Source of the DNA: a phage
DNA: 64,000 bases
Reading direction: 5' to 3' (one strand)
Assembly: GCA_033664045.1 (NCBI GenBank)
Contig: GCA_033664045.1_3674.1
Made by a program: the position numbers and the translations under genes. How positions within the stretch are numbered: the stretch's first letter is position 1; every line of letters starts with the position of its first letter. Below, piece by piece: positions 22,622-36,222 of the stretch. The notes below the pieces were generated by a model. That model was not told the origin of the DNA. It made no database searches and was given only the letters and a program-made list of their open reading frames with translations.

Positions 22622-22947
22622 CAGAGATCATCATTTCAACTGCAGGGTATGTGTTCCTGACAATCATTGCACTGACTATTTTGGTGACAGTGTATGGGTT
22701 TGTTATCCTTCCTATCCTTGAGACATTTAGTTTGTGTCGGTGTTGGAGAAAAGCTTACGGTCCACAACCATGGAAGGACTGGCCCCACCTGGTGCGCTTA
22801 GCGTTCTCTTATGCTTACGATCACTCCAGTAGTGCATGCATAACCGGATACCACGCCCACAACTGGAGCTGGGAAGGGTTGAGGAAATGGAATGTTACAA
22901 AGACCATACCTCTGCGCATGTACAAACCTAAAAACAAAGACAGCTGA
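22618..22947 (+). CDS. hypothetical membrane protein
   Basis: N-terminal hydrophobic helix IISTAGYVFLTIIALTILVTVYGFVILPIL. Confidence 0.5.
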   Translation: MTEIIISTAGYVFLTIIALTILVTVYGFVILPILETFSLCRCWRKAYGPQPWKDWPHLVRLAFSYAYDHSSSACITGYHAHNWSWEGLRKWNVTKTIPLRMYKPKNKDS

Positions 22948-22984
22948 TACTTGAAAATTCCTGGCATATCAAGTATAAGGGGGA

Positions 22985-23440
22985 TTTCTAAAATGGATTT
23001 CCTCCTTTTGATATTTCACCGGGCTGGATATTTTAAAATTCTTAGAAAATCAGAAAATGGATCGAAAACTAAAATGGATTTTTCAGAGTAGGCGCGACAA
23101 GCTGAATAACTCATCCTATCGTTTGCACCATATTCCAGGCCACAATTACAGATTTCCAGCACATGCTCCCACCCTTCTACTAGAACTTCCTCCACTTACC
23201 CTTTACCTTCTATGGTAACAATCTAACCACTATCTTGAAGTTGCGGTGCAGCTTTCCAGGTACTCGATCTACTTTTCATTTCAGGGCTTGGATTTTCTGA
23301 AAATTTTTCTCGATAAATTTCTCAGTACTCGATCTGTTTTTCGTTTTCTGAATCGGATTTTCTGGAAATCGTTCCGGATCTCGACCTGAAATTTTTGGGG
23401 ACGAAATCGATTTTTCGTTTTCAGAAATGGATTTTTAAAA
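22985..23440. repeat. non-coding tract with short direct repeats
   Basis: AAAATGGATTT x4, TACTCGATCT x2, GGATTTTCTG x2, TTTTTCGTTTTC x2. Confidence 0.5.
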
Positions 23441-23579
23441 TTTGTATATGGAAATATTTTAGGAGGTATTATTTTATATAGAATTGTCACGGTAGGTAAT
23501 TAGCATGCTAACTAAATTTATGAAATGCGAAAAGTTCTCATTTAGAATTTTGAATGATAATCATTCTCGTTTGCAGAAT

Positions 23580-23605
23580 AACGGGCACCCCCGGTGATTG
23601 TCTCC
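23580..23605. repeat. 26-bp repeat, left arm of perfect inverted repeat
   Basis: aacgggcacccccggtgattgtctcc; exact reverse complement at 32392-32417. Confidence 0.6.
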
Positions 23606-23712
23606 CGGCCCCTACTGCCCCGGCTTGTTATTATAGTAACACACAGGACAAAGAAAGCAAGAAGTTTTTTGCATAAATTTTTAGACGATAATGATAATCG
23701 TTCTCATTTTAT

Positions 23713-23741
23713 GCAGCGCCCATCCCCGGTGGTTGTCTCCC
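23713..23741. repeat. degenerate direct copy of the 23580 repeat
   Basis: gcagcgcccatccccggtggttgtctccc, preceded by gataatcgttctcatttt as the first copy is by gataatcattctcgttt. Confidence 0.4.
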
Positions 23742-23963
23742 TGTCACCGGTGCCTGCCGTCCTTTCGATATGTATATTGTGCCACCTGGCGGGGCCGCTG
23801 TCAACACTTTTCAAAAAATTTTTCTAACCTGATGCGCTAACCGCTGCAACCTGGCGGGGCCAGCCTGGCAGGACCTAACTGACCAGGTAGGAGAGAATGA
23901 AGGCTTGCAAACCTGGTGGGCCTATGCTATAGGATAGGTAACAATTGAAGAGGAGGTACAAAA

Positions 23964-24140
23964 ATGAAAGGTAATATAATCCCCCTGGAAAATGTAGCTA
24001 TTAATGACGCTGAGGCTATCGCCCTGGTTGAAAAGGCTATGGCGGGAGCGTTGGAACATAAAGAAGAGTACGAAAAAATGATGGTTAACCTGGCAGGGGC
24101 GGCGGCTGGAGAATTCTACCCAAAAAATAATTTTAACTGA
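23964..24140 (+). CDS. hypothetical small protein (58 aa)
   Basis: not in track (<60 aa); strong RBS AGGAGGT 7 nt before ATG; clean 59-codon frame. Confidence 0.5.
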   Translation: MKGNIIPLENVAINDAEAIALVEKAMAGALEHKEEYEKMMVNLAGAAAGEFYPKNNFN

Positions 24141-30614: not shown

Positions 30615-30679
30615 ACCTGGCGGGGCCGAAAAGGCCCCTACAGCATAAAATCATAAAAAATAAAGAGAGGCAAATCATC

Positions 30680-30913
30680 ATGATGGAACAAATTAAACGC
30701 GCTGAGGCTATTAATGGCAATGTGATCTATTTTGTCAGCAAAAACGAAAAAGGCGTACCATATGCGGCGGTAATAGTACAGCCTGACGGAGATTATTGGT
30801 TTACTGTATACGGATCTTATTCTTTTGGGCGTCCAGTGCATGATAAAATTTTGAAAGTAGCGAACCCCACCGGGAAGAATATCACGGCAGAAAAATTTTT
30901 TGAAAAGTGTTGA
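30680..30913 (+). CDS. hypothetical protein
   Basis: RBS AAAGAGAGG. Confidence 0.5.
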   Translation: MMEQIKRAEAINGNVIYFVSKNEKGVPYAAVIVQPDGDYWFTVYGSYSFGRPVHDKILKVANPTGKNITAEKFFEKC

Positions 30914-30988
30914 CATGACCATATAAAACTGTAGTATATAAATCAAAGGGGGCAACAAGCCCCACCAACCACAAAGAGGATAAAAATC

Positions 30989-32310: not shown

Positions 32311-32391
32311 TCCTTATAAACTACAAAACAGGGCTTGCAATGGTCCTGTTTTTTGTTATACTTGTTTCACGGGTGGCACCTGGCGACGGGG

Positions 32392-32417
32392 GGAGACAAT
32401 CACCGGGGGTGCCCGTT
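32392..32417. repeat. 26-bp repeat, right arm of perfect inverted repeat
   Basis: ggagacaatcaccgggggtgcccgtt is the exact reverse complement of 23580-23605. Confidence 0.6.
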
Positions 32418-32522
32418 ATATAAAAAACTATAAAAACCGTTGACATCTGCCGGGTGGTGGGGTAGCATTTACCTTGAAGGGGCAAAAGTGCCCACACAAC
32501 AACCAGAAGAGAGGAAAACACT

Positions 32523-34179: not shown

Positions 34180-35040
34180 TCGTAAACAGTCCGAAATTGT
34201 CACGGTGAGTTATCATAAATAGAGAAATATTTAGTCGTCTAATGTTTACTGTACATTACTATACTGACTGGAATCATTAGATGACTAAGAGAAAGATAAG
34301 AAATAATTAACAATGTAAGTATTTTACCTGCAACAATAAGGCAACTATGCAAACGAATGTCATGGCGCGACGGAGTCGCGACATAATATAAAAGCAGTAA
34401 CCATCACCCCCGTGATAGTTTGTCTGCAAACTATTAATCAGATCATAGTTGCCTTGTATTTAGTTAATCATGACATAACAAGCAAGGCAACTATAGATCT
34501 TCTAATAGTTGCCCTGCTTTTATATTATGTCATCTATTGTAAATCAGTTAATTGTTTTCATGCAAACGAATGTCATGGCTTATCATTTTTGAGTAAATAG
34601 TTTGTTTGTAAACAATCTATACGTAAACAGTTAACTATGTAAACTATTAGATATGTAAACTATTGGTTATGTAGACTATCAGGAATGTAAACAGTAAAGC
34701 GAGTGAATAGTGAGAGCGTAAACAGTCAGGCATGTCAATTATGTTTAATGTGCCCAGTATGTCACTATTGTGTCTAAAGTGTCATAGTATGTCACAGTAT
34801 GTCAGACAAGTTTTTCTCCTCTTTGTCAAGTGCTGCATGAAAAATTTACAAACTGGTATGGTAGCATTTTTGCGGCCCTGTTTACATTCAGTAATGTATG
34901 TATAATCCTTGTTGTGTGGGCGTTTGGACGTCTAGACGGTTGGAAGTCTGCAGGTCAATATCTAATCTATTGGCTGCTAACTATATCCCACACAAATAGT
35001 AAGAAATATGATTGTTATATGCGTAAACAGTAACTCATGT
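34180..35040. repeat. iteron-rich non-coding region
   Basis: at least 8 copies of GTAAAC(A/T)(G/A)T; 5 copies of (A)GTATGTCA at about 10-11 bp spacing (34757-34805); inverted ATAGTTGCC/GGCAACTAT pairs; palindrome cgcgacggagtcgcg. Confidence 0.55.
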
Positions 35041-36222
35041 TATCAATCCCTGTATGTATCGCCAGTGGTGCGCATAATGGGTATTATGTTAAATTGCCCG
35101 TAATGATAACTATTCTCACAATGATAGGTATTCTCATTCACCCCCACAAGATAGGTTGCAAATGTTGTGCCACTGTGTGAACGGCCTCACCTATTAATTT
35201 GCCTCACTGCCTCGATATTTGAGAATTGTTATAAGAATGAGAAGTATTCCCATTCCGTCCGCCTGGCAGCACTCCAGTCGCTACGGCTCATAACAGGGCA
35301 GAACTGGGTCCATTCAGATATTTCTGGCTGGCTCTTCAGGTCTGTGTGGGAAAAGCCAACCTCTCCTGCGGCGGGGAGGGGGTCAATTAAAAAATTTACG
35401 TGGTATATGTAGCGCTGTTCAGGTAAGGCATGTATTATGGGATGAAATCCTCTTCAGGCAATGATATTTGTGGGTGTGATATTTGCTGGAAAGCCAGATA
35501 TGACGGGACTCCCGGCGGGGCAGGGGTGGTACAGACAGGGAAAATATGGAGGATGTGGTTGGGTGAATTGATCAGACAGGTAGAGTATGGAATATGTTAC
35601 AAGTATGTTAAATATGAAGGGTGAATATCTGTAGGATTTGTGTGTAAAATCAAAGACTTAAGTAGTGTTGTGGTATTTTCTATAAATAATTCAAGTTTAA
35701 TAGGTAATATTTGTCTCTATCCACTTTGTGTGGTAAACAAATTCAGATGAGATTGGTTTACAAGTGTATACATAATATACAAATTAAAGATACAAGAAAC
35801 CCCCCTCCCCCTTCGGCTACCATTCACCTTTTCCTCTGACTGGTACTTAAACACTTATTCAGACTCTTCAGGTTATCACCCATATATCATATGGCAGTGA
35901 CTGGTGTCCTCCGGCCCCTCTTTCGTCACCCGTCCGCTTCGCCATGCTAATGCCATAGCCAAATGTTCGGTTGTTCACCCTGTTCACTCAGGTGTATCTC
36001 CATACCCCTTCAAACCGAAGAGAACAGAAAACCCGAATTACTCGGTAAAAGAAAAGAGAAGAACTTAATTTTATCAAGATAGGCAAGAATGTCAAGGCAT
36101 GACTGCTCACTAAACAAGCAAACAGTCATGTGCGGTAGGTAAGTGATTGTGGTTGTAGGAAATTTAATTGAAAGATGTGTTATAGGTGCTTCCAGCACTT
36201 TAGCCTGGCAGCTAATTGTGTG

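What the first reader, a model, noticed from the sequence alone, without database searches (positions are those of the whole stretch)
22950..23560. Second repeat-rich non-coding tract between the replication block and the island
About 600 bp with no credible ORF carries short direct repeats: AAAATGGATTT (4 copies), TACTCGATCT (2), GGATTTTCTG (2), TTTTTCGTTTTC (2). It sits where transcription changes from the replication operons to the promoter-per-gene island, so it could hold binding sites for a transcriptional switch, an origin, or a small RNA.
Basis: seen in the sequence. Interest (0 to 1): 0.45.

Follow-up and report, generated by a model that had tools for sequence, protein, structure and literature searches.

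The report
Conserved iteron and AT-rich origin-like tract
The repeats are real and belong to a 1-kb gene-free control region found in hundreds of rV5-like and phi92-like phages; it looks most like an undescribed replication origin fired by transcription, but no experiment has tested this.

Summary
The window is a Vequintavirus (rV5-like) genome. The repeats exist and far exceed chance. The gene-free tract is larger than reported: 22948-23963.

The fourth, AAATGGAT(TT), is a sub-site of that repeat and also recurs at 22991-23079.

- Beside the repeats lies the most AT-rich 60-70 nt of the whole 64-kb window (23421-23490, 17-18% GC).
- Left of them is the most C-over-G-skewed stretch of the + strand (23126-23203).
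- To the right are palindromic, Fur-box-like sites (23524, 23553, 23690).
- Further right is a strong leftward promoter (23804-23776).

The same order recurs in five other Vequintavirinae lineages and in phi92/phAPEC8-like phages, always with three 63-78-nt repeats.

Best reading (about 0.37): an iteron plus unwinding-element origin, activated by leftward transcription. Rivals: a terminator/insulator plus operator switch, and a T5-like DNA-entry pause site.

No small RNA is supported inside the interval. Relatives carry a structured, covarying block just to its right, but the window lacks it. This is a new variant of a known kind, of moderate interest.

The parts
22985..23085 (.). Module I: short direct repeats. 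AAATGGAT(TT) at 22991, 23055 and 23072; GATATTT at 23010 and 23027.
   Evidence: (family D3). Arrays of GATATTT(G) and AAATGG(A/T)TT occupy the same position in Certre-, Seuna-, Mydo- and Henunavirus.
23100..23250 (+). C-rich, G-poor spacer (C 40%, G 8% at 23126-23203). It would act as a Rho-loading (rut-like) stretch on rightward RNA. Read leftward, the RNA is G-rich and could form a stable RNA-DNA hybrid.
   Evidence: the seven highest of the (C-G)/78-nt values sampled every 10 nt over + strand 1-34000 all lie at 23101-23161. It is the most variable part of the tract within the genus, at 25-33 variable sites per 50 nt. Kashira and ChuuTotoro have a similar skew.
23250..23445 (.). Three direct repeats (iterons): units at 23250-23314, 23315-23388 and 23389-23445. 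Each has three sub-sites: GTACTCGATCT, T-tract...(A/T)(T/C)GGATTTTC, and GAAA(A)TTTTT.
   Evidence: D1/D2, spacing 65 and 74 nt; 3 variable sites per 50 nt at 23300-23349 and at 23400-23449. Homologous triple repeats are seen in other genera.
23421..23490 (.). AT-rich stretch, a candidate DNA unwinding element.
   Evidence: 17-18% GC, the lowest 60-nt value in the whole 64-kb window (mean 43%, sd 6%); 26-27% GC over 23400-23549.
23524..23571 (.). Two palindromic boxes: AATGCGAAAAGTTCTCATT (23524-23542) and AATGATAATCATTCTCGTT (23553-23571). Family consensus is AATGA(T/G)AATnATT(C/A)TCATT.
   Evidence: 6 matches in the window against 0.24 expected. This is the only piece of the interval that blastn still finds in other genera (hits H89 and H90). 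Relatives have 1-4 boxes at fixed positions, mostly 29 nt apart.
23687..23708 (.). Third box. GATAATGATAATCGTTCTC (23687-23705) matches the 19-bp Fur consensus at 17 of 19 positions.
   Evidence: The Fur consensus is quoted from PMC4506495.
23572..23775 (.). Two tandem copies (135-137 nt apart) of a GC-rich element, GGGCACCCCCGGTGATTGTCTCC... Copy 1 (23572-23685) is homologous to the left, box-proximal part of the non-coding block conserved in relatives (called the 5' domain in the report).
   Evidence: (D5, D6), alignment, folds. Only 2-6 variable sites per 50 nt.
23776..23825 (-). Leftward sigma-70-type promoter: TTGACA, 17-nt spacer, CACAAT with a TG, preceded by an A/T-rich UP-like element.
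   Evidence: 10 of 12. The homologous promoter scores >=9/12 in 31 of 33 relatives, against 8.7% of random 70-nt segments. The same 27 nt precede a + strand promoter at 30889-30915.
35102..35254 (.). Three further copies of the palindromic box inside the 459-bp terminal repeat (window about 34805-35263). The last ends about 10 nt from the physical genome end.
   Evidence: Gotham and EdH4 records start at window 35263. The Gotham record annotates repeat_region 1-459.

Best explanation
The interval is the core of a conserved, gene-free cis-acting locus that most likely serves as a replication origin activated by transcription.

Shown:
- Three 65-74-nt direct repeats lie directly beside the most AT-rich stretch of the window.
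- On their other side is a strongly C-over-G-skewed stretch.
- A near-consensus host-type promoter 290-350 nt to the right points leftward into them.
- In relatives, the homologous promoter and a second one also point leftward. No good rightward promoter is conserved.

Inferred mechanism:
1. A phage-encoded protein binds and bends the three iterons. The repeat sequence differs between subfamilies that share E. coli as host, while copy number and spacing stay the same, which points to a phage-encoded binder.
2. Leftward transcription opens the AT-rich element.
3. The RNA, which becomes G-rich as it crosses 23250-23100, stays hybridised to the C-rich template.
4. That hybrid primes DNA synthesis or lets the phage's T7-type primase-helicase load.
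5. The palindromic boxes between promoter and AT-rich element would gate this transcription. The binder could be host Fur or a conserved phage protein.

On rightward RNA, the same C-rich stretch may also serve as a Rho-loading site that ends the upstream operon.
For: Repeats:
- Triple repeat with 65/74-nt spacing.
- Exactly three repeats of 63-78 nt in CR8, pEp_SNUABM_01 and phi92 by tool, and in Kashira, KpS8, Hena1 and ChuuTotoro by motif scan; GE_vB_MG shows two by scan plus a degenerate third seen by eye.
- In phi92 the repeat sequence is unrelated, but number and period are kept.

Composition:
- 23421-23490 has the lowest GC of the 64-kb window.
- 23126-23203 is the strongest C>G stretch of + strand 1-34 kb.

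Promoters:
- Leftward promoter in the window scores 10/12.
- Its homologue scores >=9/12 in 31 of 33 relatives and a second leftward promoter in 23 of 33. The plus-strand promoter at the boxes reaches that in 1 of 33. The null rate is 8.7%.

Conservation and context:
- 23300-23800 has 2-12 variable sites per 50 nt. Flanking genes have mostly 3-16, typically about 10.
- The tract is not coding.
Against: - No initiator protein was identified. The genes beside the tract differ between genera and have no Pfam or PHROG function.
- There is no DnaA-box enrichment: 1 site at <=1 mismatch in 1 kb, against a background of 1.34 per kb.
- Cumulative GC skew shows no turn here; it turns at about 36 kb, where transcription reverses.
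- The units (65-74 nt) are far longer than classical 17-22-bp iterons.
- No homologue occurs in plasmids or E. coli chromosomes that would show autonomous replication.
- The C-rich stretch is weak or absent in several genera: KpS8, Hena1 and phi92.
- The same palindromic boxes occur at the genome end, so their role need not be replication.
- All functional steps are inferred from sequence alone.
Confidence: 0.37

Rival explanations
1. Transcription boundary and switch, with no role in replication. The C-rich, G-poor stretch loads Rho and ends the rightward operon coming from the left. The leftward promoters act as an insulator by transcriptional interference. The palindromic boxes are operators for a repressor (host Fur or a phage protein) that sets the timing of early transcription. 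The repeats are extra binding sites, or curved DNA, for a regulator or nucleoid protein.
For: - The C>G extreme starts about 150 nt after the stop codon of the last upstream gene.
- No intrinsic terminator follows that gene; the only terminator-like site is weak, at 23391-23428.
- The boxes are palindromes in arrays, mostly 29 nt apart, conserved across hosts.
- One box matches the Fur consensus at 17 of 19 positions.
- The tract separates two differently organised gene blocks.
Against: - No good conserved promoter overlaps the boxes on the + strand.
- A boundary function does not explain why exactly three long repeats and an extreme AT-rich element are kept in two subfamilies.
- The C-rich stretch is not conserved in all genera.
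Confidence: 0.25
2. DNA-entry pause site, like the injection stop signal of phage T5. The genome end at window 35263 enters first, and the roughly 11-kb island of small early genes is expressed. Entry or use of the rest of the genome pauses at this repeat-rich tract until early proteins act.
For: - The tract lies 11.3-12.3 kb (about 8-9% of a 137-kb genome) from the physical end.
- T5's first-step-transfer DNA is 7.9% of the genome. Its stop signal is a large untranslated region full of repeats, inverted repeats and palindromes (bioRxiv 10.1101/866236).
- The same boxes mark both the end and the tract. In Mydovirus contigs a second box cluster lies about 10 kb from the conserved block, on the early-gene-island side.
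Against: - The eight DnaA boxes that characterise the T5 signal are absent.
- The terminal repeat here is 459 bp, not about 10 kb, so the tract is not inside it.
- Two-step entry has never been reported for these phages in the papers I read.
- Which end enters first is unknown.
Confidence: 0.1
3. The interval encodes a small RNA or small proteins.
For: - Several GenBank records annotate 34-84-aa ORFs here.
- Relatives have a structured, covarying non-coding block just to the right.
- Leftward transcripts probably cross the interval.
Against: - There is no Rfam or tRNA hit.
- Folding energy is no better than shuffles on either strand.
- ORF calls disagree between records, and indels break frames.
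- Repeat spacing is not a multiple of 3.
- The 92-aa ORF annotated in relatives at 23554-23829 is broken in the window, and the same reading frame stops after 23 codons in Seunavirus EC152.
Confidence: 0.07

Closest known systems
Iteron-plus-AT-rich origins (phage lambda ori, plasmid oriV such as P1 oriR and pSC101). Comparison from general knowledge.
   Same: A tandem array of direct repeats at regular spacing sits directly beside an AT-rich, easily melted stretch. The repeats evolve together within a genome, as expected for sites that co-evolve with their binding protein.
   Different: - Units are 63-78 nt with three sub-sites each, not 17-22 bp.
- There are always three.
- No initiator gene was identified.
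- There are no DnaA boxes.
- No autonomous replication is known.
Transcription-activated origins (T7 primary origin, T4 oriF/oriG, ColE1 RNA II). Comparison from general knowledge.
   Same: A host-type promoter is aimed at an AT-rich element. The RNA would become G-rich on a C-rich template, as at the ColE1 hybrid site. The phage has a T7-type primase-helicase (PMC3606486). The tract lies just inside the early region, as the T7 primary origin does.
   Different: - Those origins have no triple long repeats and no array of palindromic boxes between promoter and AT-rich element.
- No hybrid or primer has been shown here.
T5 injection stop signal (iss), bioRxiv 10.1101/866236
   Same: A large untranslated, repeat- and palindrome-rich tract lies at the inner border of a terminal segment of about 8% of the genome, filled with small early genes.
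   Different: - It has no DnaA-box array.
- It is not inside a long terminal repeat.
- Two-step entry is not known for these phages.
Fur box (GATAATGATAATCATTATC; PMC4506495)
   Same: - The box at 23687-23705 matches 17 of 19 positions.
- All boxes keep the AATGA...TCATT frame.
- One arm (GATAAT) is identical to the Fur repeat.
- The hosts are all Enterobacterales.
   Different: - The preferred half-site in most genera is GAGAAT, a symmetrical departure from the Fur repeat.
- The boxes lie downstream of the leftward promoters and at the genome end, not over a promoter.
- Fur binding is untested.

Membership tests
Iteron-type replication origin | Three or more direct repeats in tandem at regular spacing | tested here: met
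   3 copies with spacing 65 and 74 nt. 3 copies in CR8, pEp_SNUABM_01 and phi92, with unusually long units.
Iteron-type replication origin | Adjacent AT-rich DNA unwinding element | tested here: met
   23421-23490 is 17-18% GC, the lowest 60-nt value in 64 kb.
Iteron-type replication origin | Cognate initiator protein encoded by the replicon that binds the repeats | tested here: inconclusive
   Neighbouring proteins have no Pfam or PHROG function and differ between genera. The rest of the genome was not screened.
Iteron-type replication origin | DnaA boxes (in DnaA-dependent members) | tested here: not met
   One site at <=1 mismatch in 1016 nt, against a background of 1.34 per kb.
Iteron-type replication origin | Replication starts there, or the fragment supports replication | not testable with these tools
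   Needs marker-frequency analysis or an origin-cloning assay.
Transcription-activated origin (T7 / T4 oriF / ColE1 type) | Promoter directed into the unwinding element | tested here: met
   Window promoter 23804-23776 on the minus strand scores 10/12. The homologue scores >=9/12 in 31 of 33 relatives.
Transcription-activated origin (T7 / T4 oriF / ColE1 type) | Persistent RNA-DNA hybrid that is processed into a primer | not testable with these tools
   Only the composition fits: leftward RNA over 23203-23126 would be 40% G and 8% C.
Fur box | Match to the 19-bp consensus | tested here: met
   17 of 19 at 23687-23705. 15 of 19 at 23549-23567, counted by eye.
Fur box | Overlaps the promoter it represses | tested here: inconclusive
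   There is only a weak + strand promoter at 23520-23548 (9/12), and it is not conserved in relatives (1 of 33). The boxes lie downstream of the leftward promoters.
Fur box | Bound by Fe-Fur | not testable with these tools
   Needs EMSA or ChIP, or infection of a fur mutant.
T5-type injection stop signal | Untranslated repeat-rich tract at the inner border of the first-entering roughly 8% of the genome | tested here: inconclusive
   Distance to the physical end is 11.3-12.3 kb, or 8-9%. Which end enters first is unknown.
T5-type injection stop signal | Ordered array of eight DnaA boxes; location inside the long terminal repeat | tested here: not met
   No DnaA boxes. The terminal repeat is 459 bp and lies 11 kb away.
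Rho-dependent terminator | C-rich, G-poor untranslated RNA of about 70-80 nt downstream of a stop codon | tested here: met
   C 40%, G 8% at 23126-23203, the extreme of the + strand.
Rho-dependent terminator | Rho-dependent termination of the transcript | not testable with these tools
   Needs a Rho-inhibition (bicyclomycin) read-through assay across 23100-23300.
Known RNA families (Rfam 15) / tRNA | Covariance-model or ARAGORN match | tested here: not met
   No hit with E below 0.4 in the window tract. None in Kashira or EC152. No tRNA.

The most novel reading that the evidence does not exclude
The whole 1-kb locus is a single, previously undescribed replication-control device shared by Vequintavirinae and Stephanstirmvirinae. 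Leftward transcripts, which in most genera begin with a conserved pseudoknot-like leader, must pass an array of Fur-like boxes before they reach the AT-rich element and the three iterons. Host iron status (through Fur) or a conserved phage protein would then decide when the phage origin fires. The same boxes at the genome end would couple this to end recognition.
Probability: 0.12. Interest if true: 0.8.

Novelty: new variant of a known kind. Interest (0 to 1): 0.55.

Why it matters
rV5-like and phi92-like phages are widely isolated and used in therapy cocktails and typing sets. Yet their origin of replication is unknown: the rV5 genome paper looked for it by skew analysis and found none, and it simply labelled a 'non-coding' box on the map (PMC3606486).

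This work gives the tract a defined anatomy with exact coordinates: three iterons, an extreme AT-rich element, a conserved leftward promoter and a family of Fur-like palindromes. Each can now be deleted, footprinted or cloned.

It also shows that most small ORFs annotated here in GenBank records are probably spurious. If the Fur resemblance is functional, it would be a rare case of a virulent phage reading host iron status.

Tried and rejected
- **Known RNA families and tRNAs:** nothing found.
- **Protein coding:** rejected. ORF calls are inconsistent, indels break frames, and the ATG of the annotated 92-aa ORF lies inside a palindromic box. The ORF is broken in the window and short in other genera.
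- **Genome terminus or packaging site:** rejected for this tract. The 459-bp terminal repeat maps to window 34805-35263.
- **DnaA-dependent origin or T5-type DnaA array:** no boxes.
- **GC-skew turning point:** none here.
- **GATC (Dam site) clustering:** 4 sites in 611 nt against 1 per 184 nt window-wide, so not notable.
- **A rightward promoter over the boxes:** weak and not conserved.
- **RNA structure in the interval:** z-scores are not significant.
- **RNAalifold on the full MAFFT alignment of relatives:** uninformative because the variable hairpin is misaligned. A long-range pairing of CGGCG with CGCCG, suggested by a second alifold run, is contradicted by L032, where the partner changes without compensation.
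- **IMG/VR scan with the Vequintavirus box motif:** a single contig.
- **Literature:** no paper describing this tract, an origin, or Fur boxes in these phages.

Full report
**What the window is**

The tract and its flanks are 94-97% identical to Escherichia phages of the genus Vequintavirus (APECc02, PDX, FFH2 and others). 122 phage records match, and 114 cover at least 80% of the query.

The last convincing upstream ORF ends at 22947 and the next one starts at 23964. The rV5 genome paper shows a grey box labelled 'non-coding' with no ORFs, and reports that skew analysis did not locate an origin (PMC3606486). That box is probably, but not certainly, this tract.

GenBank records disagree about the small ORFs they place here.

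**Checking the observation**

TACTCGATCT, GGATTTTCTG and TTTTTCGTTTTC each occur exactly twice, at the stated place and nowhere else in 64 kb. AAAATGGATTT occurs twice, not four times. Its 8-mer core AAATGGAT occurs four times, which are all the + strand copies in the window.

The interval has 13 repeated 10-mers, against 0.8 +/- 1.2 in dinucleotide shuffles.

**Anatomy, left to right**

- **Module I (22985-23085):** AAATGGAT(TT) three times and GATATTT twice.
- **C-rich spacer (23100-23250):** at 23126-23203 it is 40% C and 8% G. The seven highest of the (C-G)/78-nt values, sampled every 10 nt over + strand 1-34 kb, all fall at 23101-23161.
- **Three iterons (23250-23445).**
- **AT-rich stretch:** 23421-23490 is 17-18% GC, the lowest 60-nt value anywhere in the window.
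- **Palindromic boxes** at 23524, 23553 and 23690. There are 6 matches to AATGAKAATNATTMTCATT in the window, against 0.24 expected.
- **GC-rich element:** after the boxes at 23553 and 23690, a GC-rich element is duplicated at 135-137-nt spacing.
- **Leftward promoter:** TTGACA, 17-nt spacer, CACAAT at 23804-23776, with an A/T-rich upstream element.

**Conservation within the genus**

In an alignment of the window with seven Vequintavirus relatives, flanking genes show mostly 3-16 (typically about 10) variable sites per 50 nt.
- The C-rich spacer shows 25-33, so only its composition is kept.
- 23300-23349 and 23400-23449 show 3.
- 23500-23800 shows 2-6.

The repeats, the AT-rich element and the boxes are therefore under stronger constraint than the coding sequence. 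Indels of 1-2 nt and repeat spacings that are not multiples of 3 argue against coding.

**Conservation beyond the genus**

blastn still finds only the box region in other genera. Reading the syntenic gaps, however, shows the same order of modules in these lineages:
- Serratia phages Kashira and ChuuTotoro;
- Seunavirus (EC152, GE_vB_MG);
- Mydovirus (KpS8);
- Certrevirus (CR8, POP15, KaOmega);
- Henunavirus (Hena1, pEp_SNUABM_01);
- the Stephanstirmvirinae (phi92, ESCO13, anhysbys).

The iteron consensus in Vequintavirinae is GG(T/G)(A/T)CTCGATCG-TTTTTCA..-(A)TCGTATTTT or AAATGGATTTTC-..-GAAAAATTTTT.

The repeat finder returns exactly three copies in each genome tested:
- CR8: spacing 78 and 63 nt;
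- pEp_SNUABM_01: 74 and 71 nt;
- phi92: 67 and 75 nt;
- the window: 65 and 74 nt.

In phi92 the repeat sequence is unrelated, yet number and period are the same. Repeats that resemble each other within a genome but differ between subfamilies infecting the same host are what iterons co-evolving with a phage-encoded binding protein would show. This is an inference.

**Direction of transcription**

I scored sigma-70-type promoters at three homologous positions in 33 distinct relatives.
- The rightmost leftward promoter reaches >=9/12 in 31 of 33, many at 10-12/12. Its hexamers are conserved and its GC-rich spacer is variable.
- A second leftward promoter reaches it in 23 of 33.
- The rightward promoter overlapping the boxes reaches it in 1 of 33.
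- Random 70-nt segments reach it 8.7% of the time.

In the window the first leftward promoter is intact. It would cross the boxes, then the AT-rich element, then the repeats, then a stretch where the RNA is 40% G and the template is C-rich.

**RNA**

Inside the interval nothing suggests a structured RNA.
- There are no Rfam or tRNA hits.
- Folding z-scores for 23240-23560 are -0.57 (+) and +0.48 (-).

To the right of the boxes, relatives carry a block of about 250 nt, conserved at 70-80% DNA identity in about 360 records. One hairpin in it has changes on both sides at all six pairs and no G-U pair at all. The whole tested structure exceeds all 500 shuffles and all slid controls on covariation score and on percentage of cells paired.

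The window lacks this block. Where relatives have it, the window has a second copy of the box plus the GC-rich element. This finding is reported as a side observation.

**The boxes**

The consensus is AATGA(T/G)AAT-n-ATT(C/A)TCATT. The site at 23687-23705 matches the Fur consensus GATAATGATAATCATTATC at 17 of 19 positions (consensus from PMC4506495). That paper also stresses that Fur recognition is degenerate and relies on one G, several T and a narrow minor groove.

Unlike the iterons, the box sequence is kept across phages of Escherichia, Klebsiella, Salmonella, Cronobacter, Pectobacterium, Erwinia and Serratia. This points to a conserved binder, either host Fur or a conserved phage protein. 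Most genera prefer GAGAAT half-sites, a symmetrical departure from the Fur repeat, so membership in the Fur regulon is open.

Three more boxes lie at 35102-35254. The Gotham and EdH4 records, which start at the physical end, map position 1 to window 35263, and Gotham annotates a 459-bp repeat there (458-459-bp terminal repeats are reported in PMC6563267, PMC7471380 and PMC6658697). So the boxes also sit inside the terminal repeat, one of them about 10 nt from the end. In Mydovirus contigs a second box cluster lies about 10 kb from the conserved block, on the early-gene-island side.

**Most likely mechanism**

I commit to a transcription-activated origin with iterons and an unwinding element, at a confidence of about 0.37.

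Shown:
- the triple repeat;
- the extreme AT-rich element beside it;
- the conserved inward-pointing promoter or promoters;
- the skewed stretch;
- the strong constraint;
- the absence of coding or RNA-structure signals.

Inferred:
- binding and bending of the repeats by a phage protein;
- melting of the AT-rich element by transcription;
- a G-rich RNA / C-rich DNA hybrid used as primer or as a helicase-loading site;
- gating by the boxes.

Against it:
- no initiator was found;
- no DnaA boxes;
- no skew turn;
- very long repeat units;
- the C-rich stretch is missing in some genera.

**Rivals**

- **Boundary and switch (0.25):** Rho loading on the C-rich RNA ends the upstream operon. The leftward promoters insulate and the boxes act as operators.
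- **T5-like DNA-entry pause site (0.10):** the tract lies 8-9% of the genome from the physical end, at the inner border of an island of small early genes, as T5's stop signal does (bioRxiv 10.1101/866236). However, it has no DnaA boxes and is not inside a long terminal repeat.
- **Small RNA or peptide genes in the interval (0.07).**

These readings are not mutually exclusive. The C-rich stretch could serve Rho on rightward RNA and hybrid formation on leftward RNA.

**Comparison, novelty and verdict**

The tract works most like an iteron/unwinding-element origin combined with a T7- or ColE1-type promoter drive. It is not a demonstrated member of any described family.

No paper in the searched library describes it. 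No plasmid or E. coli chromosome carries it.

I rate it a new variant of a known kind, with interest 0.55. It would not astonish a specialist, but it makes the open question of where these common therapeutic phages start replication directly testable, and it exposes a possible link to host Fur.

Noticed in passing
Relatives: L008:283-540, L007:5029-5290, L013:1742-2000, L010:3001-3290. Absent from the window; window 23572-23685 matches only its left, box-proximal part.: A non-coding block of about 250 nt is conserved at 70-80% identity in about 360 phage records of Vequintavirinae and Stephanstirmvirinae. Its cores are CTACCGGCGATCCACCTT and TTAGCCCCGCCTTTTCGCCGTGGGGTGGCG. One hairpin covaries at 6 of 6 pairs with no G-U, and a pseudoknot is possible. 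It has no Rfam match and is flanked by conserved leftward promoters. It is probably an undescribed structured RNA on the minus strand, or a sense/antisense pair.
   Followed up: partly
window 35102-35254 and 34805-35263: Three copies of the same Fur-like palindromic box lie inside the 459-bp terminal repeat, one about 10 nt from the physical genome end. GATATTTG repeats, like those of module I in other genera, lie at 35463-35490.
   Followed up: partly
window 52159, 52526, 52856, 53300: Four of the six exact DnaA boxes (TTATNCACA) in the 64-kb window cluster within 1.1 kb.
   Followed up: no
window 23664-23669 and about 23739: Compared with seven relatives, the window has one extra T in a T-run and one fewer C in a C-run. 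Together these break the 92-aa ORF that relatives annotate at 23554-23829. This is either homopolymer sequencing error or evidence that the ORF is not real.
   Followed up: partly
window 23578-23606 vs 32391-32419; 23799-23825 vs 30889-30915: There are exact inverted copies of 29 nt (the start of the GC-rich element) and 27 nt (the A/T-rich upstream element plus the -35 of a promoter) inside the early-gene island.
   Followed up: partly
window 23784, 23849, 30615 (also 24088 with 2 mismatches): ACCTGGCGGGGCC occurs three times exactly, against 0.56 expected at <=2 mismatches. At 23784 it forms the spacer of the leftward promoter, and at 30615 it starts a GGGGCC-gaaaa-GGCCCC hairpin after a stop codon.
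   Followed up: no
Relatives, e.g. L008:395-425 (minus strand): A tandem TGTAAAGAnnTGTAAAGA sits directly upstream of the -35 of the second leftward promoter. GTAAA-N5-GTAAA is the CpxR-type direct repeat as I remember it. It is degenerate in the window.
   Followed up: no
window 23309-23318: TCGATAAATT equals the high-affinity H-NS motif as I remember it (from memory only). It may be chance.
   Followed up: no
public records: Sixteen records named 'Campylobacter phage' (host C. jejuni) match this E. coli phage tract; those listed are 94-96% identical to it. CP057073.1, filed as a 137.5-kb E. coli plasmid, appears from its length and this match to be a Vequintavirus genome. These are likely mislabelled records.
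   Followed up: no
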